Positions 12,287-60,462 of a DNA stretch of 64,000 nucleotides are shown here, piece by piece. Under the pieces are notes generated by a model. That model was not told the DNA's origin. It saw only the letters and a program-made list of their open reading frames with translations, and searched no databases. Every line of letters begins with the position of its first letter. Position 1 is the first letter of the stretch. The stretch lies in IMG/VR virus record IMGVR_UViG_3300033146_003879, positions 118,990-182,989 of that record; one strand, 5' to 3'. The stretch comes from a virus. Its lineage: Duplodnaviria > Heunggongvirae > Uroviricota > Caudoviricetes. The translations under genes were made by a program, and so were the position numbers.

Positions 12287-15200
12287 TTATGACCCCTTCT
12301 TGACTGTTGAATATATCTTAACATTACGCATGCGCTGTGTTATTACTACTTTTCCTGGGCGGACGGTGGTGCGTTCTTGGGAGGCGAACTCATCAGAGTT
12401 TTGTGCTGTTAACAGCCCGCTATTTACTGTGCACGCAAACTTATTTTCCGTGTCAGCGGAGTACATTATTGCGTCCTGTATTGTTGAGTAAGGAACTAGG
12501 TCAGCATCTGTATCGTGAAAATAGAGAGGTAGGTATCCTATCGATACCGTGATTGGCACTGATAGCCCTGGAATAGATCCAGCATCTGACCATTGTGTGT
12601 GGTCTGCTGCTGTGTCGCCTACTTTTATTGCAGCTCGTGTTATACCTGAGTAAGGTGCTGTAAAGTCATCTGACAAAACAGTAGGGTCGGTACCCAACAC
12701 TAAGCCGTGATCGTGTAGCACATCTACTAGATCATCGACTAGGTCTATTTCTAAGCTTATTCCTAATGATAGGTCAGCAAATGCATTTATTGGGGAGATC
12801 TCTATCTCGTGATCTAGGTTTAGTGGATCAGTTGCTGTGCTAGGGGTGTTGAGTTTTATGTCTACGGCGATCTGTTCGAACGTGAGTTCCCGCAAAACAC
12901 TATCCGACACAGCCATGGCTATTGTGTGTAGAGTTGCTTTCCCAGGGACAGGCGGTGTATACATGTCAGGGTTACTAACAAGCACATTGTTGTCTTCAAA
13001 CACAATGTCAGTTGCTGTTCTTGTGATTATGAGAGGTGATGACACATCAGGGTAGTAGGAGAGATCACTGAGTGTATCGTTCATGGTCATGGTTTCAAGG
13101 GTTGTTTCTCGGGTACCATCAACACTGGATATGGTAGGGTCAGCAAGCTGTAGTACGTGGAACTCTCCGCTACTATCCTGTACGGAGGCGTCGTACTGTT
13201 GTCTTATGAATGTTGCGCTGTAGTCTTTCGCCGCTTCTGCCAGAGGAGGGTAGGCTACTATATCTTTGTTCCTTCCGAGAGAATCATCTCTATCAGCAAC
13301 GTACTTGGTAAGTCCTAGGTCTAATACAGTCCTCTCGGTACCTTTATATAAGTTGGTTATGTCGACACGGGTCTCCCCTGCTGCGTATACACCCGGGGTG
13401 CTCCTTATTAAGGTTACTTTTTTTATGTAGTTTGCAGCATCTACGTTGAAATACTTACGGGAAACACCGGGGGATACCTCTGATACTGCGTATACAGGAA
13501 GTGTAATCATTGCGAATGGAAATACCTTTGTTTTGTTTGCAGTAGAAGTTGCCCCTGCGAGCTTTATTTTCGATAACAGCCCTAAACTTTGCGCAAAGGA
13601 ACCTGAACCTAGATCTGAATCTGGACTATCTATTTCACGATAATAAGTAGACATTCTATATTTTTCTGAAGTGGGGTTGGTGTCGGTATTAGGCACTGTG
13701 TTTAACTGTATTGGGTTAAATACAAAAGTGTCGGATGCGGAGGTGGGGTCAGTTGTAGCATCAGTCTTTGTGGCAATTATTGATGGGTTAAACAAAGCTA
13801 TGTGAGCTATGTCGTATTGGGGTGCGGATGTATAGGTTGCTGCCCTTGATGATTCTATTGCTGGGTAGAACTTCTCTGTTGTTGTTGTTGCTGTTATGTA
13901 ATCTCCGTAAGTCGTGCTTGTTAAGGACTCATATGAAATCCCGTACACAAGAGCTAGTATGTACTCAGCGGAGAACAGTACAGATCTGTTTTTCGCACAA
14001 TTACCTCTAGCGCTAGAACTGAGCTTCAGGTCAGTATAATAGTCAACATCTACTGTGAAGTTGTCCACCATCGCATCCGGTAATGATCTGTTTAATGTCC
14101 TCTTTAAGTAAGTTTGTACCAGAGATGTGCTGTAGGTTTTTCTTAAAAGTGTTCTGAATCTTGTGAATGTATCGATTGTTAGTGTGTCGTGCGCTGGAGG
14201 TGGGCTGTAGTCAGAAAGGCTCTCCAAGACGTGCTGTACGTTGATGTATGTGTCTATGTTTGTGGCGGCAGATGTGAATACAGTTCTCCGTAACAGTGAT
14301 GCCTCATTATATCTGCCAAATGCTCGCTGATCGTGGCCGTTGGTCCCATCCGATCCCGCTACAGCGGTAGTGTAAATAGAATTAACTGTAGCGTCAACCA
14401 CCAGGTCTCCTGCTTGTCCGCCGAGGCGTGCTCCGGATGATTTGTCGTTTATTGCTATTGTTGTAGCTTGCCCCATTGATAGATTGCTTAGGAGATCCGA
14501 TAAAACGACGTGCATTGACGCCTGAGGCTCGTGGGTTATAGATATTGTGTCTGATATATCTCCGAAATGTATGGAGTATCCTGTTGCGGTGTCTCCTGTG
14601 TGTTCTATTTTTGTTTCATTAACGCCGCCGTATATACGTTTTGTGGATCCCCCGAGAAATAAGTTCAGAGATGAGTATATTGACGAATACCCTGTAAACT
14701 GGTCTCCTACTAATCCATGTTCAGGGGACTCAAGTGCAGGTAGAGGTCTTCTCATAATCGCTTGTTGAGGGAGAGGGGTGAATGGAGGTAACCCTTCACC
14801 ACTATTGGTTGTTGTTATAGCTCCGTTCGTCCCTATTATTGTTCCACCAGATCTAAAGTTCCCTACATTAACGCCGGGATCTCTCACATTACCTATGTAT
14901 GTGCTGCGTTTTGTTGCTCCTAGTATGTCTGTCACAACATACGCTTTTGGTTCTGCCCCGTGGGCATTGGGAGTTATTATGTTTATGAAACCTGTTGGTA
15001 GTATTGCCCCGACATATACAGGTGTTGTTGGGCTAGGCGTCCCTAGTAACAAAGGGATGAGAGGCAGTGTGTATGTTGTTGGTGATATTCTTTTCCATCT
15101 ATCAACGTGTATATTGTTTAAGTCGCTCGCCAAATCCGTTACCTCAATAGAGAACCCAACAGCAGATACTGTCTCAGGGTTTATCAACAACTCGGTACGC

Positions 15201-17101
15201 TTAACTGAATCAGGGTACACAGAAGATCTTCTGTTTATCAGCTCATAAAGAGCGGTAAACATCTGATCAATATACACAAGACTATCTTTTCCTGGTATTG
15301 TTGTGGTAGCCTCGTCTTGTGGTACTACTGGCCCTAACATTGTTGGAAATAGGTCTTTGTATGGCGCCGATGGGGTACCTCCCCACTCCTCTATGGCGTC
15401 GTAGGTTACGTTTGATAAGCGGGTTGCACCACCCGAAAAGAAACTTCCTCCAGACCCCGTCGACATAACGATGCTCGTCTCCCCTGTATGGAGAAAGTAG
15501 TCGAGATAATCATCGAGGTTTATTACTGTTCCATCAAGGAATGTTATCTTTTTCTCAGTAACAGTAAACATAGGTAAGAATGTGTCCTTCATGTATGCTG
15601 TACCGTCGCCAGGGTCAGGTGCACCTGTGTTGTGGTACAGGTAAGGATTGTTCTTATGGGAAGGTTTGTAGATGTCCCAAACTGGTACTTTCAGGCTTGG
15701 GTCAAACGTAGGATCTAGTTCTGTTGTTCCAGGCGCCATATTTGCTATAGCGTGTCCTAGTGATGCTGGTATGAATGCAAATTGAGCACTGGATGATGAT
15801 CCGTTTAAGTATTCGAAGTTTGTGTTTCCGGTTGAGGTTACGGTAGGGGTGTCGAACATTGATTTTTGTACCCCTTCTCTAGCAACAACAAATCCATAAG
15901 TTCCTGTATTTATGAAGTTAGCGTCGTATTTGGGGTGACCGTTTATCTCAGTGCTTGTGAGTTCGCCTGACACATCCCCTCGAGAAAACAAGAAGGGGTG
16001 GTGTCTTCCGTACGTAGGAACATCACCGTCATCAAGAGGTAGTTGATCATCAAATGAAACAGGTCTACCCTCAAACACAGGAGGAAACGCCGATGCTCCA
16101 GGGATCTCTATTCGGACACTACGTGGTTTTATTGTGGCTATGTAAGGTTTTTCTTCTCGGTTCTTCATGAATGTCATGTTGAGAGGGGTGGTCAACAAGG
16201 TGGATGGTGGTACTACCTCAGGGAATATCTTAACGTGAAGCGGGAATAAACCGTCATTAAACGTGCGTGCTGACCCAGCTGTAACAGACCCTAGTGCAGA
16301 TAACAAGTCACCTACAGTCATACTTGCAATGTCACACACAATGCGAATTGTAGTATACCTCTTTTTATTGTCAATAAGAACAGGATCCTCAACAAACGTA
16401 CCGTGCTTGTCTGCCTCAGTATTGTGCTCAACGATAATCGAGATGTTGTGATGTACTGCGGTCGTAAATATATCAGGGTTAGCACCCCCCTCATCAACGT
16501 ACAACATAAGAACTGTTTCTGCGTCGAAAGGAGATGGTTCGTCAGGTGATAGAGGTATCGCATGGTAGTATTCACCGTAACCTCCGAGCCCGTAGTTAAG
16601 AATCAGGGTGTAAGCGTCAGCTGTGTCAATAGATCCTGAAGAGTCCCAGTTACTTGCTGCCGCAAATCGAACCGGAACATATTGTAAGAGACGGCTGCCA
16701 GGAACACTTGTTCCGATAACACCAGAAAGGTCTCCCGGTTTCCATACTCGGATATTCACATCGCGGTCTTTCTTGTAGTAAGGGCTTCCGTAGGTCGCTT
16801 CCGGTGGGGGAGGAACAGCCGCAGGATGTCCCACAGCAGTTGCGCTAGGTTCACTTTGAGCGCTCATATACAGTTGGATCTTATCGAGGAACAACCTATG
16901 CTCAAGGCTTGACACCTCACTTTGGTTAATCCCATGCATTAGGCTAACCATCCGAGAATAAGCAGAACTACCGTAGAGCTCCGATTGACGAACGGGGTCA
17001 CAGTCCTTGTAAAAAATACCGCTGTTCTTAATGTTGTTCTTTTTGTAATCGCGAGCCATGAGTCTCCTCCTTGTTGTCACATCGAAATTATAGTAGAACA
17101 A
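12287..17101 (-). CDS. giant structural protein (1604 aa)
   Basis: Uninterrupted 4.8-kb ORF. First gene of the minus-strand structural operon, downstream of an AT-rich divergent control region. Confidence 0.6.
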   Translation of the reverse strand: MFYYNFDVTTRRRLMARDYKKNNIKNSGIFYKDCDPVRQSELYGSSAYSRMVSLMHGINQSEVSSLEHRLFLDKIQLYMSAQSEPSATAVGHPAAVPPPPEATYGSPYYKKDRDVNIRVWKPGDLSGVIGTSVPGSRLLQYVPVRFAAASNWDSSGSIDTADAYTLILNYGLGGYGEYYHAIPLSPDEPSPFDAETVLMLYVDEGGANPDIFTTAVHHNISIIVEHNTEADKHGTFVEDPVLIDNKKRYTTIRIVCDIASMTVGDLLSALGSVTAGSARTFNDGLFPLHVKIFPEVVPPSTLLTTPLNMTFMKNREEKPYIATIKPRSVRIEIPGASAFPPVFEGRPVSFDDQLPLDDGDVPTYGRHHPFLFSRGDVSGELTSTEINGHPKYDANFINTGTYGFVVAREGVQKSMFDTPTVTSTGNTNFEYLNGSSSSAQFAFIPASLGHAIANMAPGTTELDPTFDPSLKVPVWDIYKPSHKNNPYLYHNTGAPDPGDGTAYMKDTFLPMFTVTEKKITFLDGTVINLDDYLDYFLHTGETSIVMSTGSGGSFFSGGATRLSNVTYDAIEEWGGTPSAPYKDLFPTMLGPVVPQDEATTTIPGKDSLVYIDQMFTALYELINRRSSVYPDSVKRTELLINPETVSAVGFSIEVTDLASDLNNIHVDRWKRISPTTYTLPLIPLLLGTPSPTTPVYVGAILPTGFINIITPNAHGAEPKAYVVTDILGATKRSTYIGNVRDPGVNVGNFRSGGTIIGTNGAITTTNSGEGLPPFTPLPQQAIMRRPLPALESPEHGLVGDQFTGYSSIYSSLNLFLGGSTKRIYGGVNETKIEHTGDTATGYSIHFGDISDTISITHEPQASMHVVLSDLLSNLSMGQATTIAINDKSSGARLGGQAGDLVVDATVNSIYTTAVAGSDGTNGHDQRAFGRYNEASLLRRTVFTSAATNIDTYINVQHVLESLSDYSPPPAHDTLTIDTFTRFRTLLRKTYSTSLVQTYLKRTLNRSLPDAMVDNFTVDVDYYTDLKLSSSARGNCAKNRSVLFSAEYILALVYGISYESLTSTTYGDYITATTTTEKFYPAIESSRAATYTSAPQYDIAHIALFNPSIIATKTDATTDPTSASDTFVFNPIQLNTVPNTDTNPTSEKYRMSTYYREIDSPDSDLGSGSFAQSLGLLSKIKLAGATSTANKTKVFPFAMITLPVYAVSEVSPGVSRKYFNVDAANYIKKVTLIRSTPGVYAAGETRVDITNLYKGTERTVLDLGLTKYVADRDDSLGRNKDIVAYPPLAEAAKDYSATFIRQQYDASVQDSSGEFHVLQLADPTISSVDGTRETTLETMTMNDTLSDLSYYPDVSSPLIITRTATDIVFEDNNVLVSNPDMYTPPVPGKATLHTIAMAVSDSVLRELTFEQIAVDIKLNTPSTATDPLNLDHEIEISPINAFADLSLGISLEIDLVDDLVDVLHDHGLVLGTDPTVLSDDFTAPYSGITRAAIKVGDTAADHTQWSDAGSIPGLSVPITVSIGYLPLYFHDTDADLVPYSTIQDAIMYSADTENKFACTVNSGLLTAQNSDEFASQERTTVRPGKVVITQRMRNVKIYSTVKKGS

Positions 17102-17294: not shown

Positions 17295-17570
17295 AGTCCC
17301 CAAATCAACGTAACTACCTGATAATACTACATGCACTTGGGGACTACTCGGGGACTTACTCTGATATTCGGGGACTTATTCCTCCTTTGCAAAGTAGCAT
17401 TAGTTGTATACTTTATTTAGTATCACAAGTGATACGTTAGGTTTACTGTAGTATACAATCCAAATAATTAAACGTCTTGTGTTCGTGTTTTTGTGTATTT
17501 CTGTGCAATGCTAGTCCCCAGATTTGCCGAGTAACTCCCCGGATCTTGGAATAACTCCCCAAATTTACCC
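17295..17570. promoter_or_regulatory. divergent control region with about 7 GGGGACT / AGTCCCC repeats
   Basis: agtcccca at 17295 and 17513, ggggact x3 at 17337-17385, actcccc at 17544 and 17564. Lies between the starts of 12287..17101 (-) and 17721..20115 (+). Confidence 0.45.
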
Positions 17571-17720
17571 TTCTGTTTTTCGCCACTTTATCCTCTTGTT
17601 TATTTTTGTGTGCGGCATTTTAATTAGACGCATATTTAATCAACAAATTATTTTTAATCAACCAGTACTTCCCCTTGTTATATACCCTATAATTAGAGTG
17701 ACGTTATTTTGGAGGCATAA

Positions 17721-20115
17721 AATGCATAATGTAAAACCGTATCAAGTTAGAAGACAAGCGGATGGTGAGCTCCACCCTGTAGCTATAACGGAGAGGCTAC
17801 TCGCTGTTCGTGACAAACAGTACTCAAGCCCTGTATTATTGCTTCGAGAACAACCCTACCTGCTTGATGGAACACCTACTGTTGCTGTGACACGTGTGTT
17901 AGCAGTGAGTTCACCACTAACAGAGGTTGCTCCTACGGCCGTTGTTCCTATAGAGTCCTTTGTTGTTAGTTACACAGAAGGCATTATATACCTGAACGAG
18001 TCTGAGGTCCCTACCGGAAGTGATGTAAGTGCTGCTTTATATATAGTAGAGTATAGTGGGCTAGGTACACTCGTCAGCACAAGAGATATTCTCAGCCGAG
18101 ACGCTGATGCGTCAAACGCGAGTGACACAAATAGTGCTCTCCAGCGCTTTAACGTAACAGATTCTTACAAACTGGACCCCTCATCATATACGGCGTCTGC
18201 ACAAACAACAGCAGACTCAGTCAATGATGTCTTCTCCTTCGTCCTCTCCGGGGTATATATAACTGTTGCGCGCAATTCTACGGTCTCGTTTATGGAGATG
18301 GATAGATCCACAGCAACACTGAACGCAGTAGCAATAACATCAGACGCGATACCTAATCTAGCAGCCTCAAACCCTGCAGATATATGCATCATATCAGAGT
18401 CTGCTACTGCAATACACGACGGGCTTGGCGGCTTACACTTATTTACCTTGTCAGGAACCTCTTCCGGGACAGCGCGCCGCCTCAAAGTAACATCATTTAA
18501 ACTAGGCTTTACTCCGATAAAACTTGCGGTATTATCACCAGGGAACGACTCTATTATTGTGACATATGTCATGGGTAACGGTACTGGTGCTTATTCCACA
18601 GGGTATTTGCGCTTAACATCCGGACTTATGTTGTTTGATCAAGTAAACATAGACATAAGTAGTCACATAGATACCGGGTTTATTGATATACTCAGTGTGT
18701 CCTCAATACAAGGACCAAACACAACATTTAGTATTTTACAGAGCACCGGAGGAACAACAGTAAGCGTGACGTCGCTGTACTTCAATAGTTATATTTACGA
18801 CGCTCCTGCAGGAGAAGTTATAAGAACAGGAACCCTACCATTTTCAGGGAACATGTACTCCTTCGCCGCCGGCTACGGACCCGACGGCTCTGTTGTAGTA
18901 GCAACGTTTGCCTCATTTACTATGGGACCAAATCTCTATACTACAGCAATACACCCAGATGGAGAGTGCACTACCCTAACCTTCCCGCTGATGCCGAACG
19001 AACAGATTGTGAGCACCACCCGATCACACGGACTCTACATAGGTGTTACTCGCTACCTCGACGGCTCGGATGTGCACTTAAGAACAGCGTTATTCGACTT
19101 TGCAAATTATGAGATAAGCCCCCCTTTAGACATAAATGCATCCGTCACAATCGGTCCGGTTGCACACAGAGAGAACCTTTCTGTATTTACCTATGAATAC
19201 GGAGGCTTTGCCCAAATTATTTACTACGACAACCGCACAGCGAGTAACACGAAGTACGTCCTTGACTATGCGCGGTTCGACACAAAAAGAGACGACTGCG
19301 TACATCCTGACGGACTGCTCCAATGGGAAGGCGACGTCATTAGTGACGAGACTTACATAGACGATACAACACCAGGAGTCCAACTTACTCTGCTAACAAC
19401 ATGTAAAGACACAGAGATTGAGGCAAATTCAGCAGGAACAATCGAGGCTACCGTAACAGGAAAACAAGATGTAACAGGGGACGTCGCGAGCTTCAGAGTT
19501 ACTGCAACTATTCATAATGATGGAATGGCAACAACTATTGTAGGGACCCCAACAACAACAGTACTCGCGAGCACGGCTGGTGCTACAGGCTGGGTAGCGC
19601 GCGCATACAATGCAGGAAACTATCTTATTATCTTTGTACATGCAGACGGCTCTACAAACAACGTACACTGGTCAGCAGAAGGGTTTGTTGTTAAAACAGA
19701 ACTACCTGCAGTTTACACACCAGGAAGCCTTGCTGTATGGGAAGGAGAGACGACAACAGATGAAACTTACGTCAACGATACGACACCAGGAACAAAGTTC
19801 ACATTAGTGCCGGCATCAACAGTAGATACACTAGCGAGTGGTGAGATTGCCAACGTATCAGCTGTAGTTACTGCCGCATCTGTTTCTGGTGAAGCTGCAA
19901 GCTTTAGAATAGAAGGGACTGTGCAGTATGACGGATCCACAACAATTCTTATAGGAACACCTACCGTGTCTGTTCTCGCAGCGTCTGCCGCCGCAGTTAC
20001 ATGGAGAGCACGTGTTTACTTCGATAGCAATCAGATCGTTATTTATGGACACGGGGACGGTAGTGGCGGCGACACTATTACTTGGAACGCCAAAGGTATT
20101 CTTATTAAGTTCTAA
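17721..20115 (+). CDS. tail-fibre / receptor-binding-like protein with internal ~130-aa domain duplication
   Basis: Start at ATG 17721 is preceded by ggagg. Two C-terminal repeats (TYIDDTTPG...WSAEGFVVK and TYVNDTTPG...WNAKGILIKF). Ser/Thr/Gly-rich composition typical of fibres. Confidence 0.5.
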
Positions 20116-20163: not shown

Positions 20164-20985
20164 TTAAGGTAGATGGTAATACACACCATCTACGTCTATG
20201 TCTATAAGGGCTTCAATTCGCCCTATAACCACTCCGGTCGCTACTGGACTATACGTAACAACCTCGTATGAGTCAGAATAATTGTAATCCAGAGATGTTA
20301 CGGTAAATGATAGATTATGCCTATCCCGCAGCATATCAACTGTCCTATCACCTAGTCGGGCTGGCATGCTCACGTTCGATTCTTTATTAAGTGTAAAGTA
20401 TAATGTAAGACTACTCATATCAGACACAACTGCGAAATACATAGTAAGTATGTAGCCGGAATAACGACCTACAAGCTCACACTCCATCACAGACCCGAGT
20501 AGTAGGTCACCGTCTTTCCTTAGAACCTCTTCACAAACAACATCTGTTATAGGCACGTCCGTGTCATCCGACTCCTCAGAATCATCAGCGACAGCGTCAT
20601 CATCAGCCGACTCCTCAGAATCAACAGTCTCATCGACACCACCAGCCGACTCATCAGAATCAACAGTCTCATCGACACCATCAGCCGACTCATCAGAATC
20701 AACAGTCTCATCGACACCATCAGCCGACTCATCAGAATCAACAGTCTCATCGACACCACCAGTAGCCTCCTCTGAGTCTACATCAGCAACTTCATCAGCA
20801 ACACAGATCGAGTCAATACACTCGAGCCTTGAATCACAGGTGTTATTATCGTAGCACTTTTCATGCCATCCTCCAACATCACCTGATCCTTTCGCCGCGT
20901 CTCCACCGCAGCTAACAACAAACATGTTCATCAAAACCACCAACAAAACCACCAACCACCCCTTTCTTCTTGTAACCTTAGTCAT
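20164..20985 (-). CDS. secreted lipoprotein with Cys-rich N-domain and acidic 13-aa tandem repeats (GVDETVDSDESAD x ~5)
   Basis: Start MTKVTRRKGWLVVLLVVLMNMFVVSCGG has GGAGG 7 nt upstream. Signal peptide plus lipobox VVSC. Repeats are visible in both protein and DNA. Confidence 0.65.
   Translation of the reverse strand: MTKVTRRKGWLVVLLVVLMNMFVVSCGGDAAKGSGDVGGWHEKCYDNNTCDSRLECIDSICVADEVADVDSEEATGGVDETVDSDESADGVDETVDSDESADGVDETVDSDESAGGVDETVDSEESADDDAVADDSEESDDTDVPITDVVCEEVLRKDGDLLLGSVMECELVGRYSGYILTMYFAVVSDMSSLTLYFTLNKESNVSMPARLGDRTVDMLRDRHNLSFTVTSLDYNYSDSYEVVTYSPVATGVVIGRIEALIDIDVDGVYYHLP
20569..20763. repeat. 5 x 39-bp tandem repeat inside the lipoprotein gene
   Basis: Unit ccgactcMtcagaatcaacagtctcatcgacaccaYcag repeated head-to-tail. 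Generates spurious shadow ORFs on both strands. Confidence 0.8.
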
Positions 20986-21225: not shown

Positions 21226-21582
21226 TCATAACCCTCCATCTTGATTAATATTACGATGCCTAAGATCAATCCGAAAGCTCTTTTCAAATAACTTCGGGGG
21301 GAATACCAGCAGCGTACCATCTGTCCTACGTACTATATAGTCCCCTATGTTTGCTCCCGCATATGACTTGGCCCCATCCTGCATAAGCTGAGGCTTATTT
21401 GAGATAGGGCAAAGAACTATAGACAAATTCTTAATGTTTGTCCGTTTTGAGAACGCGTCGGCTTCCTCTTGGGTTTCTCCCCACCAGCGCTCAGCCATAA
21501 TTTCCTCTGCATGGGTTCCGGGACCCTTCTTGAACACATATCTATTCACAACACACCTCCTAGCGGTGGTATATTGTCGCAC
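21226..21582 (-). CDS. small protein, paralogue family A member 1
   Basis: Shares Y-x-[KR]...AAQW[LI]G[EN][TS]..AF and C-terminal GDY[VI]..G..[VI]F...F[EN][KR] motifs with three neighbouring ORFs. Confidence 0.5.
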   Translation of the reverse strand: MRQYTTARRCVVNRYVFKKGPGTHAEEIMAERWWGETQEEADAFSKRTNIKNLSIVLCPISNKPQLMQDGAKSYAGANIGDYIVRRTDGTLLVFPPKLFEKSFRIDLRHRNINQDGGL

Positions 21583-21902
21583 CTAAGATACACACCATAC
21601 CTACTATTAAAGAACTTCTCGGTAAACACCCTTATAACCCCCTTACCGTCGACAGCTATAAAGTTACCGTACTCGGCACTCCTAACTATTTTATCTTCAC
21701 CCGGTGTTACCACCACCTCCAGCTGTTGTGTGAAAGGATTTTCATCAAGAAATAGCCTACCTTGGAGTCCGTGTTCTTCCATGAACGCCTCCAGATCTTC
21801 CTTCGTATTACCTAACCACTGTGCTGCATAGAGTTCTTTGTCACACACCCTCCTATTATTGCTAAAGCCTGGAGGAGACCAACGTATTTTATACCTATCC
21901 AT
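21546..21902 (-). CDS. small protein, paralogue family A member 2
   Basis: LYAAQWLGNTKEDLEAF ... GNFIAVDGKGVIRVFTEKFFNSRY. Confidence 0.5.
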   Translation of the reverse strand: MDRYKIRWSPPGFSNNRRVCDKELYAAQWLGNTKEDLEAFMEEHGLQGRLFLDENPFTQQLEVVVTPGEDKIVRSAEYGNFIAVDGKGVIRVFTEKFFNSRYGVYLRCDNIPPLGGVL

Positions 21903-21944
21903 ATCTCACAACCCCCTTAGCAGTATACTGTTATTTATTAAGAA

Positions 21945-22493
21945 TCACCAATCAACATCATCGTCGTCCCAGCCATCATCATCGTCGTCCCAATCATCAT
22001 CATCGTCGTCCTCATCGTCCTCATCATCCTCATCCTCATCATACTCGCCAAGGAACTCCGCAGCTTCTTCATCATCACATGCGGCATAATCATACTTATT
22101 AGGATCTGATGCTGGGATATAGTCATCTCTCATGTTATCAACCCATATCTTTGGGAGCGATGGTTCGTAGGCACGCTCAAAGGGAATGCCTGGAATAATT
22201 AATATCTTTCCTGATTCACGCCTTACAACATAATCCCCTTGGCTAGCGTGTCTGAATGTCGCACCAAAACCCTCTTGCGTGAGCACCTTATTACCAGACC
22301 GGACACGAATAACCGTAAGCCCCTCAATTCCATGCTCCTCACCAAACACCTTAGCATAACACACGGTAGACCCGATCCAACACGCTGCGCGTATCCTTTC
22401 TGGTAAAGCCTTTCCTTCAGAGTCTGTTTTGTATCCGCTTTTCTTTAGTTTATACTCAATCACAACACCCTCCGCTACCCCATAGGTCCACAC
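21945..22493 (-). CDS. family A member 3 with a 60-aa poly-acidic, Trp-punctuated C-terminal tail
   Basis: Core matches family A (AACWIGS ... GDYVVRRESGKILIIPGIPFERAYE). Tail is EYDEDEDDEDDEDDDDDDWDDDDDGWDDDDVDW. Confidence 0.5.
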   Translation of the reverse strand: MWTYGVAEGVVIEYKLKKSGYKTDSEGKALPERIRAACWIGSTVCYAKVFGEEHGIEGLTVIRVRSGNKVLTQEGFGATFRHASQGDYVVRRESGKILIIPGIPFERAYEPSLPKIWVDNMRDDYIPASDPNKYDYAACDDEEAAEFLGEYDEDEDDEDDEDDDDDDWDDDDDGWDDDDVDW

Positions 22494-22912
22494 CCAACAG
22501 CTTTACCTGGAGTGCATAATTTCTCTCCTGGTACGAGGGCTTTTCTAGCTTCTTCCTCGCCCCCGAACGGAGTAAACCCGTGTATCAACAGGCGCATAAT
22601 TACCCCGTGGTTCTTTCTAATAGCAATCACACACATCACATTCTTATTGTGAGCGAGGATAGCTTGCTGAAGTGCTGACTCAACGTAATCTTCGCATGTT
22701 GTATTAGCAACACTCAGTAAGAGTGCGTCATGCACCCCTTGCAGTTCGCTTGTCCTCTGTTCCGTAGAAACGGCATCGACGGATATAACGAGCGCTACAA
22801 AGAACGCACTGCCAACCGCTGACCTGACAACAGCATCAGTCGTCTGTGCTGAGTGGGACTCGAGCACCAGAAACCCGATAATAAACAGAAATATCAGTAA
22901 TACAAAACTCAT
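22475..22912 (-). CDS. hypothetical protein with N-terminal signal/anchor
   Basis: Starts MSFVLLIFLFIIGFLVLES (hydrophobic). Confidence 0.4.
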   Translation of the reverse strand: MSFVLLIFLFIIGFLVLESHSAQTTDAVVRSAVGSAFFVALVISVDAVSTEQRTSELQGVHDALLLSVANTTCEDYVESALQQAILAHNKNVMCVIAIRKNHGVIMRLLIHGFTPFGGEEEARKALVPGEKLCTPGKAVGCGPMG

Positions 22913-22921
22913 GATCTCCTC

Positions 22922-23260
22922 CTAAATTAAACGCCCTTCTTGAGCAAGATTATTACCCACCAGCACAGGTTTTCTCACTTCTACATACTTCTTTTCGAAG
23001 ATATGCCTACTAAACACAGCTATACCGTTCTCCCAATCAAGAGCAACGTAATCACCCTGTTTTGCTACAGTAGATGCTATGAACGATCCTTTCAGTCTTA
23101 TGTGGTACACTTGTGAGTAATATGCTTTGTAGTATTTCAGCGCAGGTAACCCCTCTTTCTTTGCGAAAGCATCAGCATCAGCCTGGGACTCACCTAACCA
23201 CTGAGCCGCGTACAAAAAGCGCTCACCTATACCACGTCTCCGATACTTTTTCACAAACAA
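22922..23260 (-). CDS. small protein, paralogue family A member 4
   Basis: LYAAQWLGESQADADAF ... GDYVALDWENGIAVFSRHIFEKKY. Confidence 0.5.
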   Translation of the reverse strand: MFVKKYRRRGIGERFLYAAQWLGESQADADAFAKKEGLPALKYYKAYYSQVYHIRLKGSFIASTVAKQGDYVALDWENGIAVFSRHIFEKKYVEVRKPVLVGNNLAQEGRLI

Positions 23261-24158: not shown

Positions 24159-24499
24159 TGGTGGAGGCGGCGGGAATCGAACCCGCGTCCTAAAAACCTT
24201 CAAGATAGATACTACATGTTTAGTCCGTCTTTACTAAAATCTTCGGCGCCAACGGACAGGCCCCTCGAAGTTTCCTACGCTAAAGTTTTCGTGGCATCTC
24301 CCACATAGAAAGGATCAACCCTTAGTCTCACAGTTGTGCGCCCCAATTGGTGTCGTGAGCACCCCTCCAATAGGACGGCAGCTTATGCTGCTATGAGTTC
24401 AGTTTTTGCGTCTCTGAACGTGCCGCTTTTTACGAGGCCCGCGGCGCCTCGACATGCATCTATTCTCTCCGCGAATCCAGTCGAAACCAGGTCGCCCCC
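24159..24499 (-). ncRNA. ssrA: tmRNA (ssrA-like), about 341 nt, phage-encoded
   Basis: Minus strand reads 5' GGGGGCGACCUGGUUUCGACUGGAUUCG ... GGACGCGGGUUCGAUUCCCGCCGCCUCCACCA 3'. The 7-bp acceptor stem (GGGGGCG / CGCCUCC) carries a G3.U pair. T-arm GCGGG-UUCGAUU-CCCGC with terminal CCA. Internal putative tag frame ends ...ACU GAA CUC AUA GCA GCA UAA (TELIAA*). Confidence 0.8.
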
Positions 24500-24502: not shown

Positions 24503-24907
24503 TTACAAACTACACTCCTTAACAATATGTTCTGTTCTCAAAGTGTCCTCAAACAACATAGAATGATAATACATCCTATGCCAACCGACCCAGGTAATGC
24601 TGTATGCATAGCAATACGCATGCTGGGAACGGAAATCAATAGATCCGTCAAAGATAGCGCTAACAGGAACTATCTCACCAGCGTATTCGATGATTCTCTC
24701 AGGCAGCAACAGGTAGCGCCCTCGCGCATACATCTTACCAAACGAGGTGAGCGCCTCCACATCTATTCTGTGGACCTTCCCCACTACCCCAATAACGGTA
24801 CCGACAAGGCCTTCATTAACAAGCTTACGCAAATAGGTCTCGCCCTTTATGCGCATATATTCGCGCAAGCTACCGTCAACTCTGTCACCATACATAGATC
24901 TAGCCAC
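24503..24907 (-). CDS. small protein, paralogue family B member 1 (probable GTG start)
   Basis: KIDVEALTSFGKMYARGRYLLLP motif shared with B2 and B3. Leader AGGGGG + 6 nt + GTG is conserved with B2. Confidence 0.45.
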   Translation of the reverse strand: MARSMYGDRVDGSLREYMRIKGETYLRKLVNEGLVGTVIGVVGKVHRIDVEALTSFGKMYARGRYLLLPERIIEYAGEIVPVSAIFDGSIDFRSQHAYCYAYSITWVGWHRMYYHSMLFEDTLRTEHIVKECSL

Positions 24908-24917
24908 AACGCACCCC

Positions 24918-25274
24918 CTAAACACTACCTATATTATCAACAGTTAAGCTATCAGTAAACAATAGAGGGCTAAGTATGATACCGCCTTCCGATATTCGGT
25001 AACCATCTACCATACCGTATGAAGACCTAAAGTCCGTGGCTAGCATAGGGCACACCTCCGCCTCTACCACCATACCTGCATTAGATATCATATCACAAGG
25101 CATCAACAAGAACTTGTTTCTACTAAACATCTTTCCGAATGTCTTAAGCATATTTATCCTTATTTTATATAAACCAGAGGGAGACCTTGTATCATTCACC
25201 CTTGAGTAAATCCCCTCATATATCATTCTCCCAAGGAACTCTGAACTCTGGACACGAAGTACTTTTGTCCGCAC
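24918..25274 (-). CDS. small protein, paralogue family B member 2 (GTG start)
   Basis: KIRINMLKTFGKMFSRNKFLLMP. About 65 bp of conserved upstream sequence shared with B1 (minus-strand TTTACT-17-TAATAT promoter-like). Confidence 0.45.
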   Translation of the reverse strand: MRTKVLRVQSSEFLGRMIYEGIYSRVNDTRSPSGLYKIRINMLKTFGKMFSRNKFLLMPCDMISNAGMVVEAEVCPMLATDFRSSYGMVDGYRISEGGIILSPLLFTDSLTVDNIGSV

Positions 25275-25668: not shown

Positions 25669-26058
25669 TTAGATACCACCTAGATTATCCCCCAAGAGAC
25701 TATCGCGGAATAGTAATTGACTAAGACCGAATCCTCCATCCCGCAGTTGATACCCGACAGCATATCCTTTACTAGCGAAGTAATCGCACAACCAAGACTC
25801 ACTCGCCTTTACGTAGACAAGTCTATCAGCCATATCGAATAACTCTAAAGGAAGGACCAGGTAGTACTTCCTTCTATATAGCGGACCGAACGACATAAGC
25901 TTACCTACATCAATCTTATAGGCCTCACCTTCTCTTCCGTATGACCTAGCGACACTTCCTTCTTTAACCATTGTATCCAAAAAACCCCTACTCTGGGCAC
26001 GTACTACTCTTATAGCCACTCTACTTTCCCAATCAAACGGTCTCAGAATCTCACTCAC
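25669..26058 (-). CDS. small protein, paralogue family B member 3 (GTG start after GGAGGG)
   Basis: KIDVGKLMSFGPLYRRKYYLVLP. Confidence 0.45.
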   Translation of the reverse strand: MSEILRPFDWESRVAIRVVRAQSRGFLDTMVKEGSVARSYGREGEAYKIDVGKLMSFGPLYRRKYYLVLPLELFDMADRLVYVKASESWLCDYFASKGYAVGYQLRDGGFGLSQLLFRDSLLGDNLGGI

Positions 26059-26070
26059 AGCACCCTCCAC

Positions 26071-29992: not shown

Positions 29993-30367
29993 TTACTGAT
30001 TCTTAATGTATGTCTTGATGACTTCGAGCGGTGCGCCGCCAGAAGACGTAACGTAATAAGACGGGGACCATAATTTCTTGTGCCGTCTTAATTCCGGGTA
30101 TAAAGCTCTGAGCTTTTTGCTTGTTGGCCCCTTAACTGCCTGCACTATAGAGGAGATTGACTCTGTCGAAGGGTATTCAATAAGGAGGTGGACGTGATCT
30201 AAATCGCCGTTACATTCCTCAAGCGTGATCCCCTTCTTCTTGAACGCCTGTCTTGCATAATATGCGAAGTCTCCAAGTATTCTCGGAGAAAGCACCTTTC
30301 TCCTATACTTCGTTACCAATACGAGGTGTGCATGCAAGCTGCTTATGTTTGTTCTTGACTTCCTCAT
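29993..30367 (-). CDS. tnpA: IS200/IS605 Y1 (HUH) transposase TnpA
   Basis: LHAHLVLVTKYRRKVL ... DHVHLLIEYP (HuH) ... LWSPSYYVTS (catalytic Tyr). Confidence 0.85.
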   Translation of the reverse strand: MRKSRTNISSLHAHLVLVTKYRRKVLSPRILGDFAYYARQAFKKKGITLEECNGDLDHVHLLIEYPSTESISSIVQAVKGPTSKKLRALYPELRRHKKLWSPSYYVTSSGGAPLEVIKTYIKNQ

Positions 30368-30389
30368 AACCCTAAGTATACTCTTTTGT

Positions 30390-31508
30390 ATGAAAGTGTC
30401 AAGAGCATATAAATACCGCCTTTACCCTACGCGAGAACAAGAGATTAAGTTGTCTCAGTTCGTTGGAAACAATAGATATCTCTGGAACTTCGTTCTATCC
30501 GCTCTCGAAGGCAAGAAGTGGGACCGATTCGCTGTTTCCAAACAACTTCCTTCACTTAAGTCTGAAATACCATTCCTTAAAGAATCTCCGTCTCAAGCGT
30601 TTCAACAATTGTTAATTGATATGGATGCTGCATTTAAGAGCTTCTTTCGGAAGAAACACGGATATCCGAAGTTTAAGAAACGCGGTATGCACGACTCTTT
30701 TAGAATACCGGTTGTGAAGTCCCCTGAATCTATAAACAAGAATAGCTGCGTCTGGATACCAAAATTGGGTTTTGTGGAACTGCGTTTGTCGCGTGAGGTG
30801 AGAGGAGAAGCGAAGTCTATCACTGTGTCTCGGAGAGCGGGAAAATGGTTTGTCTCAATATTGACGAAAAGCGAGATGCAGGAAACAGGCGGAAAGACAG
30901 GAAATAGTGTAGGAATTGATCTCGGCGTTAAACACTTCGCGACAACGTCGGGCGGAAAGCATATACATGCTCCAGAGGAAAGAGTGCGCTATTTAGAGAA
31001 GAGAATAGAGCGCATGCAGAGGAAAGTCAGTAGAGCGAAGAAAGGATCAAGCAACAGAAGCAAGTTGCGTCTTAAATTAAGTAGACTCCACTTAACTCTC
31101 GCGAATGTGAAAGAAGACTTCTTGCACAAGGTGAGCACACAGTTAATCAAGAACCACGATTTACTTGTGCTCGAAGACCTTGGTGTAAAGGAGATGACAG
31201 AAGCAGGAGCGAGAAAAGCGAAGTTAAATAGAGCAATCTTGCGTCAAGGTTGGTATAAATTTAGGACTTTACTTGAGTATAAGAGTATGTGGTATGGCTG
31301 TGCCGTAGTGTTCGTCCCGCCTCAATTCACGAGTCAGCGCTGTAGCGAATGCGGGAATATAAACGCAGCAAACAGAAAGACACAATCGTCATTTAAATGC
31401 CTTTCGTGTGGCCATACTGAAAACGCTGATATAAACGCAGCTAAGAACATTTTCACCGTCGGGCAGACGGGTAGAGCCTTTGGAGACGCCGCGCTAGCGG
31501 GTCGATGA
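30390..31508 (+). CDS. tnpB: TnpB (OrfB, RuvC-like, RNA-guided nuclease family)
   Basis: N-terminus KVSRAYKYRLYPTREQ, GIDLGVKHFATTSGG (RuvC-I), C-terminal zinc finger CSECG...CLSCGH, DINAAKNI. Confidence 0.85.
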   Translation: MKVSRAYKYRLYPTREQEIKLSQFVGNNRYLWNFVLSALEGKKWDRFAVSKQLPSLKSEIPFLKESPSQAFQQLLIDMDAAFKSFFRKKHGYPKFKKRGMHDSFRIPVVKSPESINKNSCVWIPKLGFVELRLSREVRGEAKSITVSRRAGKWFVSILTKSEMQETGGKTGNSVGIDLGVKHFATTSGGKHIHAPEERVRYLEKRIERMQRKVSRAKKGSSNRSKLRLKLSRLHLTLANVKEDFLHKVSTQLIKNHDLLVLEDLGVKEMTEAGARKAKLNRAILRQGWYKFRTLLEYKSMWYGCAVVFVPPQFTSQRCSECGNINAANRKTQSSFKCLSCGHTENADINAAKNIFTVGQTGRAFGDAALAGR

Positions 31509-32180: not shown

Positions 32181-32598
32181 TCTTCTCCTCCCATTTTCTC
32201 AACTGTTTCATCAAACTTCCATCAACATCAAGGCGTCCGTCACCCATGGGATTTCCAAAACTGAACCACCCACCATCGACGGTACGAGTAAATGTTAGCG
32301 GGGTATTTTCTTCATCATCCAGATGACCATATACTAGCACGTCAGTTTCCTTTGCATACAATCCCGAGCACTGGTCAACCTCTTGTTTCCACAGCTCTCT
32401 CAGATCCTTTCGCGCGGTATTAAAGGAAGCAACGGTTTGTATATAGGCCCGGTTGTGCCGGGTCATTTTGACCTTTCCGTCGTCGAAGAAGTCATACTCC
32501 TCCCCTACCAACGGGACAGGCATTAATTTTCTAACTCCCATAGTGTTCCCCTCCATCTCCGTGGTTAGTAACAGCCGCTCTAATACCCTCTGCGACAC
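32173..32598 (-). CDS. hypothetical protein (141 aa); part of it is duplicated at 34156-34400
   Basis: PLVGEEYDFFDDGKVKMT...SGLYAKETDVLVYGHLDDEE recurs in the downstream ORFs. Confidence 0.4.
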   Translation of the reverse strand: MSQRVLERLLLTTEMEGNTMGVRKLMPVPLVGEEYDFFDDGKVKMTRHNRAYIQTVASFNTARKDLRELWKQEVDQCSGLYAKETDVLVYGHLDDEENTPLTFTRTVDGGWFSFGNPMGDGRLDVDGSLMKQLRKWEEKSG

Positions 32599-56886: not shown

Positions 56887-56892
56887 GACAAC

Positions 56893-60415: not shown

Positions 60416-60462
60416 CATAATTAACACATCCTCAATAAAATGTTGTATAAGATACCATCCAC

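What the first reader, a model, noticed from the sequence alone, without database searches (positions are those of the whole stretch)
21226..23260. Four tandem paralogues (family A); one carries a poly-Asp/Glu, Trp-punctuated tail (DNA-mimic-like)
ORFs 21226..21582, 21546..21902, 21945..22493 and 22922..23260 share AAQW[LI]G and GDY[VI]...G..[VI]F...F[EN]K motifs and are strongly diverged, which suggests diversifying selection. Member 3 ends in about 45 residues that are more than 75% Asp/Glu with regularly spaced Trp (DDDDDDWDDDDDGWDDDDVDW). This charge pattern recalls DNA-mimic anti-restriction proteins such as Ocr and ArdA. The arrangement is typical of counter-defence or host-takeover loci.
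Basis: partly seen in the sequence, partly recalled or inferred. Interest (0 to 1): 0.65.

Follow-up and report, generated by a model that had tools for sequence, protein, structure and literature searches.

The report
Four SPP1-gp5-like phage paralogues, one acidic-tailed
Four real but very divergent copies of a widespread phage accessory protein of unknown function (the SPP1 gp5 / "PGDYG-like" family) sit in one operon of an uncultured ~183-kb phage, and one carries a predicted-disordered Asp/Glu tail with regularly spaced tryptophans, a tail type common on phage DNA-binding proteins and unlike the folded Ocr/ArdA DNA mimics.

Summary
Four minus-strand genes are homologous: pairwise BLASTP E-values run from 1e-12 to 1e-3, and they are the only hits among 705 window ORFs. 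They share the A-x-Q-W-x-G and G-D-Y-[IV] motifs. Member 3 ends in a 46-residue tail that is 70% Asp/Glu, with W-x6-W-x6-W at the C-terminus. An unrelated membrane-protein gene interrupts the array.

No close relatives exist among 1.84 billion representative proteins. A profile-profile comparison (98.9%, E 2.3e-17) places the family in a widespread group of small phage proteins: PHROG 419/1810, SPP1 gene 5 (dispensable, unknown function) and proteins annotated "PGDYG protein". One member of that group matches 374 phage records.

The Ocr/ArdA DNA-mimic reading is not supported. A disordered polyanionic docking tail is the better analogy. Counter-defence remains possible, through two weak associations with Tad2- and Acb2-like sponges. 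Diversifying selection is untested. Interest is modest.

The parts
22922..23254 (-). Family member A4 (110 aa with the GTG start; the longest ORF runs to 23260). Basic, pI 9.7.
   Evidence: ORF. An AGGAGG ribosome-binding site lies upstream, and the source's gene call is 110 aa. Homologous to A2 and A1. HMM hit E 1.3e-42.
22475..22912 (-). Unrelated 145-aa gene X inside the array, a predicted membrane protein with two N-terminal hydrophobic segments. It belongs to the operon but not to the family.
   Evidence: No BLASTP similarity to A1, A3 or A4. Hydropathy peaks at residues 1-23 and 25-50. A GGAGGAG ribosome-binding site lies 9 nt after the A4 stop. No Pfam family.
21945..22463 (-). Family member A3 (172 aa with the GTG start; the longest ORF runs to 22493). 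Core domain plus linker plus acidic tail.
   Evidence: The AF2 model has core pLDDT 80-93. The source's gene call is 172 aa.
21948..22085 (-). Coding region of the 46-residue acidic tail: AACDDEEAAEFLGEYDEDEDDEDDEDDDDDDWDDDDDGWDDDDVDW.
   Evidence: 24 D and 8 E in 46 residues, with W-x6-W-x6-W at the C-terminus. It is the most acidic 30-residue window among all window ORFs, at 87%. The last 35 residues have no predicted secondary structure, pLDDT 55-57.
21546..21902 (-). Family member A2 (118 aa, ATG start), pI 5.4. It has YGNF in place of GDY.
   Evidence: Identical to the source's 118-aa call P0001.
21226..21549 (-). Family member A1 (107 aa with the GTG start; the longest ORF runs to 21582), pI 9.6. 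Its start overlaps the A2 stop as GTGA, which suggests translational coupling.
   Evidence: An AGGAGG site lies 7 nt upstream of the GTG, and the source's call is 107 aa. Best direct PHROG hit is phrog_1810, E 1.4e-4.
20164..20985 (-). Downstream gene on the same strand, a lipoprotein-like protein (signal peptide plus VVSC lipobox) with four acidic VDETVDSDESADG repeats. A strong terminator-like hairpin follows at 20154-20130.
   Evidence: Translation. A ribosome-binding site and ATG at 20985. Second most acidic segment of the window. Terminator-like hairpin with a 10-bp stem and T-run.

Best explanation
Shown.
- The four genes are old, highly divergent paralogues of a widespread small-protein family of tailed phages whose function is unknown. 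This is the family of Bacillus phage SPP1 gene 5, PHROGs 419/1810/4502/6363, and proteins that depositors label 'PGDYG protein'.
- They are co-transcribed with a small membrane protein. They lie at the 3' end of a long minus-strand unit, in the nucleic-acid-metabolism arm of an uncultured ~183-kb phage-like contig.
- The predicted domain has an N-terminal strand carrying A-x-Q-W-x-G, then a helix, then an SH3/Tudor-like small beta-barrel carrying G-D-[YW]-[IV]. The barrel half is the unit repeated up to 32 times in giant PF14083 (PGDYG) proteins.
- Member A3 has added a C-terminal polyanionic tail with three Trp at heptad spacing, the last being the C-terminal residue. The tail is predicted to be disordered.

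Inferred.
- The core is a protein- or ligand-binding adaptor module, and each paralogue has its own target.
- The A3 tail probably works like the acidic, aromatic-ended C-terminal tails of phage and bacterial single-stranded-DNA-binding proteins (T7 gp2.5, T4 gp32, E. coli SSB) and like eukaryotic DSS1. It would act as a flexible electrostatic stand-in for nucleic acid, docking through its Trp side chains into a basic nucleic-acid-binding groove of a partner.
- The result would be either blocking or recruiting a DNA- or RNA-handling protein of the host or the phage. Which partner is involved, and whether the outcome is host takeover, replication control or counter-defence, is not determined.
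For: Paralogy.

Real genes in an operon: each has a ribosome-binding site. Gaps are 9, 11 and 42 nt, plus a 4-nt GTGA overlap. The starts match the source's gene calls. The unit ends at a strong terminator-like hairpin.

Family assignment.
- HMMER of the four-member profile against 1.84 billion representatives finds small proteins with the same two motifs at E 3.7e-6 to 5e-4. It also finds PF14083-positive repeat proteins at E 5e-26, 2.5e-9 and 3.3e-5.
- hhalign of the window profile against 13 such proteins, including SPP1 gp5 and Streptococcus phage MissE1 'PGDYG protein', gives 98.9% probability, E 2.3e-17.
- Those relatives hit PHROG 419/1810 at E down to 6e-19. One of them matches 374 phage records.
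- BFVD Foldseek returns only phage proteins that are uncharacterised, unnamed or named by annotation only, several of them called 'PGDYG protein'.
- SPP1 ORF 5 is dispensable and of unknown role (PMC6316719).

Tail.
- Composition and spacing; no predicted secondary structure.
These gave 118 ORFs in 73 clusters, most carrying W-(D/E)4-6 repeats at the C-terminus.
- Carriers include an Enc34/gp2.5-type SSB (PF10991, E 4.8e-31), DUF669, a weak gp32-like protein and a SUKH domain.
- The gp2.5 acidic tail contacts replication partners and competes with ssDNA for the same surface (PMC10359462 and its reference 31).

Context of relatives: mostly DNA replication, recombination, nucleotide or DNA-modification modules. 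This matches the window, which carries RNA ligase, NAD-dependent DNA ligase, RNase H and a methyltransferase.
Against: - No member of the family has an experimentally known function, so the adaptor role is inference.
- Pfam PF14083 itself does not hit any window member. It also does not hit SPP1 gp5 or the MissE1 protein.
- Direct PHROG hits of the window proteins are weak, the best being E 1.4e-4.
- The core is not an OB fold, and most family members are acidic or neutral. The SSB analogy therefore applies to the tail only.
- None of the 118 W-acidic-tailed viral ORFs carries this domain, so there is no independent second case of this architecture.
- pLDDT 55-57 is a prediction of disorder, not a measurement.
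- The tail could also be a solubility or autoinhibitory appendage, or a cation binder.
Confidence: 0.45

Rival explanations
1. Counter-defence locus. The family proteins would inhibit bacterial immunity, with A3 acting as a nucleic-acid-mimic decoy against DNA-targeting systems (restriction-modification, BREX and similar).
For: - The acidic tail.
- Accessory character: SPP1 ORF 5 is dispensable, positions in phage genomes vary, and several phages carry multiple copies.
- One relative (P0016) is fused to a Tad2-like domain, PF11195, E 2e-9.
- In Curtobacterium phage AddiRose, three copies flank gp60, which carries the Acb2/Tad1 hairpin domain at E 1.3e-11.
- In phage vB_KsaM-C1 the family gene abuts a Cas4-family nuclease that the depositor labels anti-defence.
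- The window phage also carries a methyltransferase and a GmrSD-HNH gene.
Against: - There are only two or three anecdotal associations among hundreds of occurrences.
- Most sampled contexts are replication, nucleotide-metabolism or packaging modules.
- The tail is predicted to be disordered, unlike Ocr or ArdA.
- Three of the four paralogues have no acidic tail, and two are basic.
- W-acidic tails are common on SSBs and other non-defence proteins.
- No sequence or fold match to any known anti-defence protein.
Confidence: 0.2
2. The core domain is a module that binds nucleotides or small ligands, either as a sensor or regulatory domain or as a sponge. The paralogues would bind different nucleotide-derived molecules.
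For: - The domain forms the N-terminus of phrog_4159, 'nucleotide pyrophosphohydrolase'. Relatives match profile positions 2-96 of 270 at E down to 3.2e-10.
- BFVD structural neighbours include proteins annotated 'Nucleotide pyrophosphohydrolase', 'Nicotinate ribosyltransferase' and QueE.
- It is fused to a Tad2-like domain in P0016.
- In E. coli phage Bas19 it lies inside the 7-deazaguanine DNA-modification cluster.
- Elsewhere it lies next to Sir2, ligase and MazG-like genes, or next to a dCTPase.
- Conserved aromatic residues (W in AxQWxG, Y/W in GD[YW]) could form a binding pocket.
Against: - No ligand-binding fold was recognised.
- Annotations such as 'nicotinate ribosyltransferase' come from depositors and are unverified. 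Pfam finds nothing in that protein.
- A fusion shows functional linkage, not that this domain is the ligand binder.
- This reading does not explain the acidic tail.
Confidence: 0.15
3. An accessory factor for virion assembly or DNA packaging, such as a head-assembly chaperone or a minor capsid-associated protein.
For: - In SPP1 the homologue (gene 5) lies between the terminase and the portal genes.
- In Streptococcus phage MissE1 it lies between the head-morphogenesis and scaffold genes.
- P0016 lies directly upstream of the small terminase subunit.
- One W-acidic tail sits on a 627-aa protein that looks like a terminase large subunit by eye.
Against: - SPP1 ORF 5 is dispensable and has no known assembly role.
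- No structural match to any virion protein above noise.
- In the window, the nearest recognisable genes are nucleic-acid-metabolism genes, on the tmRNA side. The genes immediately beside the array have no Pfam match, and across the convergent terminator lie large unannotated ORFs.
- Gaps between head genes are well-known insertion points for accessory genes.
- Four copies are hard to explain for a structural role.
Confidence: 0.07
4. The ORFs, or the acidic tail, are non-functional. They would be chance ORFs, decaying duplicates, or a trinucleotide-slippage artefact.
For: - No close orthologue exists anywhere.
- The tail is low-complexity GAT/GAC/GAG sequence.
Against: - All four retain the invariant family residues, intact frames, ribosome-binding sites and tight operon packing.
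- The profile matches to an independent phage family cannot arise from non-coding DNA.
- The tail mixes GAT, GAC and GAG codons with precisely spaced TGG codons and ends on Trp.
- The same design recurs in at least 73 viral protein clusters.
Confidence: 0.03

Closest known systems
Bacillus phage SPP1 gene 5 product and its relatives (PHROG 419, 1810, 4502, 6363, 36935)
   Same: - Single small domain of about 85-120 aa, starting M-x-[KR]-[YF].
- The same two motifs: A-x-Q-W-x-G, and G-D-[YW]-[IV] followed by F-x3-Y.
- Profile-profile probability 98.9%.
- Found in phages as a dispensable or accessory gene, sometimes in several copies per genome.
   Different: - The window copies are extreme outliers. 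Direct PHROG E-values are only 1e-4 to 0.16, and tblastn of A4 finds no phage at E up to 1.
- They carry a shared C-terminal extension (R-x3-5-N-[IL]-x3-4-G-x-[LI]) that the sampled relatives lack.
- No sampled relative has an acidic Trp tail.
- Four copies in one operon is the largest cluster seen here.
Pfam PF14083 'PGDYG protein' (domain of unknown function)
   Same: - The C-terminal barrel half, carrying G-D-Y, matches the unit repeated up to 32 times in PF14083-positive giant proteins P0005, P0007 and P0010.
- Depositors label close relatives of the small family 'PGDYG protein'.
   Different: - The PF14083 HMM does not hit any window member at E up to 1. It also misses SPP1 gp5 and the MissE1 protein at E up to 0.1.
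- The window proteins lack the Pro and the second Gly of the name motif.
- The N-terminal A-x-Q-W-x-G strand and the helix are mostly not matched in two of the three giants: most matches in P0005 and P0010 start at profile positions 40-57, whereas several repeats in P0007 start at positions 16-21.
Acidic C-terminal tails of single-stranded-DNA-binding proteins (T7 gp2.5, T4 gp32, E. coli SSB, Enc34-type phage SSBs)
   Same: - A C-terminal Asp/Glu-rich tail predicted to be disordered and ending in an aromatic residue.
- Nearly identical W-(D/E)4-6-W tails are found on Enc34-type and DUF669 proteins in IMG/VR.
- The gp2.5 tail competes with ssDNA and docks replication partners (PMC10359462).
   Different: - The tail here is attached to a non-OB, SH3/Tudor-like domain that is not generally basic.
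- It is much longer and more acidic, at 32 acidic residues.
- No evidence that A3 binds DNA.
Ocr (T7 gp0.3) and ArdA, folded DNA-mimic anti-restriction proteins
   Same: High density of negative charge, and a phage accessory gene.
   Different: - From general knowledge, Ocr and ArdA are rigid folded dimers whose whole surface copies the phosphate pattern of B-DNA.
- Here the charge is confined to a tail with no predicted structure, on one of four paralogues.
- The A3 core has pI 7.7.
- No Pfam match to either family.
DSS1/Sem1 (eukaryotic disordered acidic protein)
   Same: - Disordered, acidic and punctuated by Trp (recalled from memory: WEDNWDDDNVEDDF).
- It acts by occupying DNA-binding OB/helical surfaces of BRCA2 and shuts down their DNA binding (PMC11329725 abstract).
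   Different: Not homologous, eukaryotic, and a free-standing peptide rather than a tail on a folded domain. This is an analogy only.

Membership tests
SPP1 gp5-like small phage proteins (PHROG 419/1810 group) | Statistically supported sequence-profile homology to family members | tested here: met
   hhalign of the window four against 13 members gives probability 98.9%, E 2.3e-17 over 84 columns. hmmsearch of the window profile finds members at E 3.7e-6 to 5e-4 in 1.84 billion proteins.
SPP1 gp5-like small phage proteins (PHROG 419/1810 group) | Direct match of each protein to the PHROG HMMs | tested here: inconclusive
   A1: phrog_1810 E 1.4e-4 and phrog_419 E 1.4e-3. A4: phrog_419 E 5e-3. 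A2: phrog_1810 E 0.04. A3: phrog_1810 E 0.11. The intermediate relatives hit at E 1e-8 to 6e-19.
SPP1 gp5-like small phage proteins (PHROG 419/1810 group) | Conserved motifs A-x-Q-W-x-G and G-D-[YW]-[IV] ... F-x3-Y in a domain of about 90 aa | tested here: met
   Alignments. A, G(D) and F are invariant. A2 has YGNF in place of GDY.
SPP1 gp5-like small phage proteins (PHROG 419/1810 group) | Same predicted fold as family members | tested here: met
   Foldseek against BFVD. The listed hits are phage proteins of 85-372 aa, many of about 85-110 aa, several named PGDYG protein. Three have E at or below 1e-3, and target-normalised TM-score reaches 0.69. The query model is of moderate quality.
Pfam PF14083 (PGDYG) | Score above the Pfam gathering threshold (27 bits) | tested here: not met
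   No Pfam hit for any of the four at E up to 1.
Pfam PF14083 (PGDYG) | P-G-D-Y-G motif | tested here: not met
   The window members have IGDYI, QGDYV (twice) and YGNFI. G-D-Y is kept in three of four, but the Pro and the second Gly are absent.
Pfam PF14083 (PGDYG) | Remote homology to bona fide PF14083 proteins | tested here: met
   The window profile hits P0005, P0007 and P0010 at E 5e-26, 2.5e-9 and 3.3e-5. These score 310, 115 and 82 bits on PF14083. Most matches to P0005 and P0010 cover only the C-terminal barrel half, while several in P0007 extend further towards the N-terminus.
Ocr/ArdA-type DNA-mimic anti-restriction proteins | Sequence membership (Pfam Ocr or ArdA families) | tested here: not met
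   No Pfam family at E up to 1. No PDB sequence match.
Ocr/ArdA-type DNA-mimic anti-restriction proteins | Rigid folded structure displaying carboxylates in a B-DNA-like array | tested here: not met
   AF2 predicts no secondary structure in residues 148-182, pLDDT 55-57. The acidity is confined to the tail, and the core has pI 7.7. This rests on prediction only.
Ocr/ArdA-type DNA-mimic anti-restriction proteins | Inhibition of type I restriction-modification enzymes | not testable with these tools
   Needs plaque assays or in-vitro assays.
SSB-type acidic C-terminal tails | Disordered Asp/Glu-rich C-terminus ending in an aromatic residue | tested here: met
   32 acidic residues in 46, with a terminal Trp. 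Predicted unstructured. The same tail design occurs on PF10991 and DUF669 proteins.
SSB-type acidic C-terminal tails | Tail attached to an OB-fold ssDNA-binding domain | tested here: not met
SSB-type acidic C-terminal tails | Tail competes with nucleic acid and docks partner proteins | not testable with these tools
   Needs binding experiments.

The most novel reading that the evidence does not exclude
The SPP1-gp5/PGDYG-like domain would be a general, fast-evolving recognition module of phage counter-defence. It would occur alone, in multi-copy arrays, or fused to effector parts such as Tad2-like sponges and MazG-like hydrolases. The A3 architecture, recognition module plus W-acidic nucleic-acid-mimic tail, would be a new class of tethered decoy. 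It would block DNA-binding immune proteins in a way different from the folded mimics Ocr and ArdA. W-(D/E)n tails would then be a widespread, portable 'DNA-mimic peptide' of phages.
Probability: 0.12. Interest if true: 0.65.

Novelty: new member of a known kind. Interest (0 to 1): 0.3.

Why it matters
The family is one of the common "dark matter" small proteins of tailed phages. One member alone matches 374 phage records, including the model phage SPP1, and no function is known for any of them. A phage that keeps four divergent copies in one operon, one with a distinctive tail, gives a natural set of variants for finding the family's targets.

The side result may be more useful than the locus itself. 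Trp-punctuated poly-Asp/Glu tails recur on at least 73 unrelated viral protein clusters, notably single-stranded-DNA-binding proteins. This suggests a portable docking or nucleic-acid-competitor peptide that could be tested directly.

As it stands, the locus is a divergent member of a known uncharacterised family. It is not a new kind of system.

Tried and rejected
1. Direct annotation. Pfam gave nothing for the four proteins or their neighbours. PHROGs gave only weak hits to families of unknown function.

2. PDB by sequence. Profiles of 4 and 21 sequences gave nothing below E 0.2.

3. Word-indexed homology search. It returned only the four self proteins, or a handful of relatives, in all three attempts. 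This kept the alignment for structure prediction shallow, at 15 sequences.

4. Fold searches.
- The AFDB50 library was unavailable.

5. Looking for related phages or orthologous arrays.
- IMG/VR scans with the family pattern and with the two neighbouring large proteins found nothing.
- Megablast of 6 kb against 50,697 phage records gave no match.
- Exact-sequence contig look-ups of P0001 and P0002 found nothing on record.
- As a result, no synteny or dN/dS test of diversifying selection was possible.

6. Literature. Searches for 'PGDYG' and 'PF14083' returned nothing relevant.

7. Generic nucleic-acid binding by the core. I considered this because A1 and A4 have pI 9.6-9.7, and rejected it as a family property. 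12 of 17 outside members have pI below 7, and only one has pI above 8.

8. Further family members elsewhere in the 64-kb window. None were found.

9. Promoter scan. It was not above the shuffled expectation, 12 against 10.0 +/- 3.4, so no operon start is claimed.


Full report
**1. The observation**

The region holds four minus-strand ORFs at the stated coordinates.

- All pairs are similar by BLASTP. A1-A3 has E 2.9e-12, A2-A4 2.7e-12, A1-A4 3.7e-10, A1-A2 1.1e-8, A2-A3 6.6e-6 and A3-A4 about 1e-3, at 23-29% identity.
- An HMM built from the four retrieves only these four among all 705 stop-to-stop ORFs of at least 40 aa in the window. The similarity is therefore specific and not a composition effect.
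- Ribosome-binding sites and the source database's own gene calls give corrected starts. A1 is 21226-21549 (107 aa), A2 is 21546-21902, A3 is 21945-22463 (172 aa) and A4 is 22922-23254 (110 aa).
- With these starts, all four begin M-x-[RKE]-Y.
- The A1 start overlaps the A2 stop as GTGA. The other gaps are 9, 11 and 42 nt.
- An unrelated 145-aa gene with two hydrophobic segments (22475-22912) sits between A4 and A3, so the array is interrupted.
- Downstream lies a lipoprotein-like gene with acidic repeats. It is followed by a strong terminator-like hairpin at 20154-20130, facing the end of a convergent plus-strand gene.

**2. The tail**

- A3 ends with AACDDEEAAEFLGEYDEDEDDEDDEDDDDDDWDDDDDGWDDDDVDW. 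This is 46 residues with 32 Asp/Glu, and Trp at exact 7-residue spacing, the last being the C-terminal residue.
- It is by far the most acidic segment of any ORF in the window, at 87% over 30 residues. The only other segment above 45% is the neighbouring lipoprotein.

**3. What kind of genome this is**

- The four proteins come from a single 182,989-bp JGI metagenome contig.
- The window carries a tmRNA gene, NAD-dependent DNA ligase, an RNA-ligase-like protein, RNase H, an EcoRI-type methyltransferase, a GmrSD-HNH protein, a radical-SAM protein and an IS200/IS605 element.
- Several very large ORFs have no match in Pfam or PHROGs.
- Nothing similar exists in 50,697 phage records at the DNA level, in IMG/VR or in the metagenome contig collection.
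- This is most simply a large, uncultured, phylogenetically isolated phage. No capsid or terminase gene lies inside this window, so that identification remains an inference.

**4. What the family is**

- Pfam finds nothing in the four proteins. PHROGs gives only weak hits to families of unknown function, the best being A1 against phrog_1810 at E 1.4e-4.
- A full HMMER search with the four-member profile against 1.84 billion representative proteins found 19 hits:
  - the four themselves;
  - eight proteins of 87-146 aa with the same two motifs (E 3.7e-6 to 5e-4);
  - a protein with two tandem copies (P0009);
  - a protein with the domain followed by a Tad2-like domain (P0016);
  - three giant proteins (P0005, P0007, P0010) carrying many PF14083 'PGDYG' repeats together with Zeta-toxin/AAA_33 and annexin domains;
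  - two other hits, Calx-beta and cadherin repeat proteins, which are probably spurious sums over repeats.
- The small relatives hit PHROG 419/1810/4502/6363 at E down to 6e-19.
- One of them (P0018) matches 374 phage records by tblastn. These include SPP1 gene 5, streptococcal prophages, Gordonia and Arthrobacter phages, T4-like Acinetobacter phages, SPO1-like Bacillus phages and jumbo Erwinia phages. Some are annotated 'PGDYG protein'.
- Profile-profile comparison of the window four against 13 of these proteins gives 98.9% probability, E 2.3e-17.
- The link to Pfam PF14083 itself is indirect.
  - The model misses the window proteins, SPP1 gp5 and the MissE1 'PGDYG protein'.
  - In P0005 and P0010 the repeats mostly match only the C-terminal barrel half of the domain; several in P0007 extend further.
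- The literature held here has nothing on PGDYG or PF14083.
- The SPP1 genome paper states that ORF 5 is dispensable and of unknown role (PMC6316719).

**5. Structure**

- AlphaFold2 on A1 with 4 sequences gave mean pLDDT 68.8. On A3 with 15 sequences the mean was 69.5, with the core at 80-93.
- The core has an N-terminal strand or strands, a helix after the W-x-G motif, and then a set of short strands ending in a helix.
- The barrel assignment is therefore tentative, and no virion, enzyme or known anti-defence fold is indicated.
- Foldseek against BFVD returns only uncharacterised phage proteins, several named PGDYG protein. A few longer ones are annotated nucleotide pyrophosphohydrolase or nicotinate ribosyltransferase.
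- The last 35 residues of A3 have no predicted secondary structure and pLDDT 55-57.

**6. Is the tail special?**

- I scanned IMG/VR for DNA encoding W-(D/E)4, then 1-3 residues, then W-(D/E)4.
- Translated in frame, these give 118 ORFs in 73 clusters. In most, the motif lies within about 30 residues of the C-terminus.
- Representative carriers include an Enc34/gp2.5-type ssDNA-binding protein (PF10991, E 4.8e-31), a DUF669 protein, a weak gp32-like protein and a SUKH immunity-type domain. By eye there are also a dUTPase-like and a terminase-like protein.
- None of them carries the family-A domain.
- W-acidic tails are therefore a recurrent, portable feature of phage proteins, and they stand out on ssDNA-binding proteins.
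- For T7 gp2.5, the acidic tail is reported to contact replication partners and to compete with ssDNA for the same surface (PMC10359462 and its reference 31).
- DSS1 is a eukaryotic disordered acidic protein that shuts down DNA binding by BRCA2 domains (PMC11329725). From memory, it has a very similar Trp-acidic sequence.
- This is the basis for reading the A3 tail as a flexible nucleic-acid competitor or docking peptide. The function of the tail is inferred, not shown.

**7. Context and copy number of relatives**

Relatives sampled in annotated phages fall into two kinds of context.

In replication, recombination, nucleotide or DNA-modification modules:
- between ligase/Sir2 and a MazG-like gene in Erwinia phage Hena1;
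- between a dCTPase and DprA in Acinetobacter phage Apostate;
- next to RusA in Arthrobacter phage Constance and Bacillus phage Shbh1;
- next to a Cas4-family nuclease in vB_KsaM-C1;
- inside the 7-deazaguanine cluster of E. coli phage Bas19;
- after the SSB gene in Curtobacterium phage AddiRose.

In or beside packaging and head modules:
- SPP1, Streptococcus phage MissE1 and the P0016 phage.

Other points:
- Some relatives lie in long arrays of small unannotated genes.
- Several copies per genome recur. AddiRose has three (gp59, gp61, gp64), which flank gp60, a protein with the Acb2/Tad1 hairpin domain. One metagenomic contig has two. P0009 has two domains in one chain.
- The Tad2-like fusion and the Acb2-like neighbour are the only specific links to counter-defence.

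**8. Diversifying selection**

- Each window paralogue scores about as well against outside homologues (33-44 bits for P0013, P0011, P0008 and P0012) as against its window siblings (29-47 bits).
- The copies pair as A1-A3 and A2-A4.
- A1, A2 and A4 share a short C-terminal extension that is absent outside, which hints at a common origin.
- The divergence is old and saturated, and no orthologues exist for a rate test. The claim can neither be supported nor excluded.

**9. Verdict**

- The locus is a four-copy, very divergent branch of a known, widespread phage family whose function is uncharacterised.
- The acidic Trp tail is real and striking. It belongs to a common class of disordered phage tails, not to the folded Ocr/ArdA mimics.
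- The most likely mechanism is a binding module plus a polyanionic docking or competitor tail aimed at a nucleic-acid-binding partner. The confidence of 0.45 given for the best explanation covers the family identification as well; the mechanism taken alone is worth roughly 0.3.
- Counter-defence (0.2) and nucleotide or ligand binding (0.15) remain live alternatives.
- Novelty: new member of a known kind. Interest is modest, at 0.3.

Noticed in passing
window 24159-24499 (-): A complete tmRNA gene (Rfam RF00023, 173.6 bits; ARAGORN tag peptide AKTELIAA) sits about 900 nt beyond the A4 end of the array, inside what looks like a large phage genome. The tag is short and ends in IAA, not the usual LAA.
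   Followed up: partly
window 24503-24925, 24918-25274, 25669-26070 (-): A second three-member family of small paralogues lies next to the tmRNA gene. Pairwise BLASTP E-values are 4e-15 to 1e-21 at 27-34% identity. No Pfam hit.
   Followed up: partly
window 20164-20985 (-): A lipoprotein-like protein: signal peptide, VVSC lipobox, then four tandem acidic repeats VDETVDSDESADG. It lies directly downstream of the array and is the only other strongly acidic segment in the window.
   Followed up: partly
Carriers include Enc34/gp2.5-type SSBs, DUF669 and a SUKH domain. The largest is a 17-member cluster of proteins of about 150-185 aa in which Pfam finds nothing (tail ...DSWDEEEDDWDEEEDYEDEDY).
   Followed up: partly
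L009 (Curtobacterium phage AddiRose PQ868986.1) 1410-3702: Three members of the family (gp59, gp61, gp64) flank gp60, which carries the Acb2/Tad1 hairpin domain (E 1.3e-11). gp61 is annotated 'nicotinate ribosyltransferase', but Pfam finds nothing in it.
   Followed up: partly
L135 (Escherichia phage ChristophMerian/Bas19 MZ501057.1) 2498-2746: A family member (bas19_0029) is embedded in the 7-deazaguanine DNA-modification gene cluster, between Gat-QueC and QueD/FolE/DpdA. This phage is experimentally tractable and could be used to test the family's function.
   Followed up: no
window 29993-31508: An IS200/IS605 element: TnpA Y1 transposase at 29993-30367 (-), E 4e-34, and TnpB/Cas12f-like at 30345-31508 (+). 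It coincides with the only local break in the strong negative GC skew.
   Followed up: no
window 4-4761 (+), 12287-17101 (-), 9929-11794 (-), 17524-20115 (+): Very large ORFs (1585, 1604, 621 and 863 aa) have no Pfam or PHROG match at all. The two that were tested (1604 and 863 aa) have no relatives in IMG/VR, and the 1604-aa one has none in the JGI metagenome scan.
   Followed up: partly
window 58225-60427 (-): An EcoRI-type adenine methyltransferase (E 1.9e-127) lies immediately upstream of a GmrSD-N plus HNH endonuclease protein. This looks like a phage-borne modification and nuclease pair.
   Followed up: no
P0005 (3743 aa), P0010 (3138 aa), P0007 (1612 aa): Giant proteins carry up to 32 tandem PGDYG-like barrel repeats, with a period of about 64 aa. 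P0005 and P0010 also have annexin and Zeta-toxin/AAA_33 kinase domains. Their origin and role are unknown.
   Followed up: partly
window 32176-32607 / 34262-34864 and 55851-56438 / 56563-56892 (-): Two further pairs of paralogous small ORFs (E 1e-11 and 5e-5). The genome seems rich in small multigene families.
   Followed up: no
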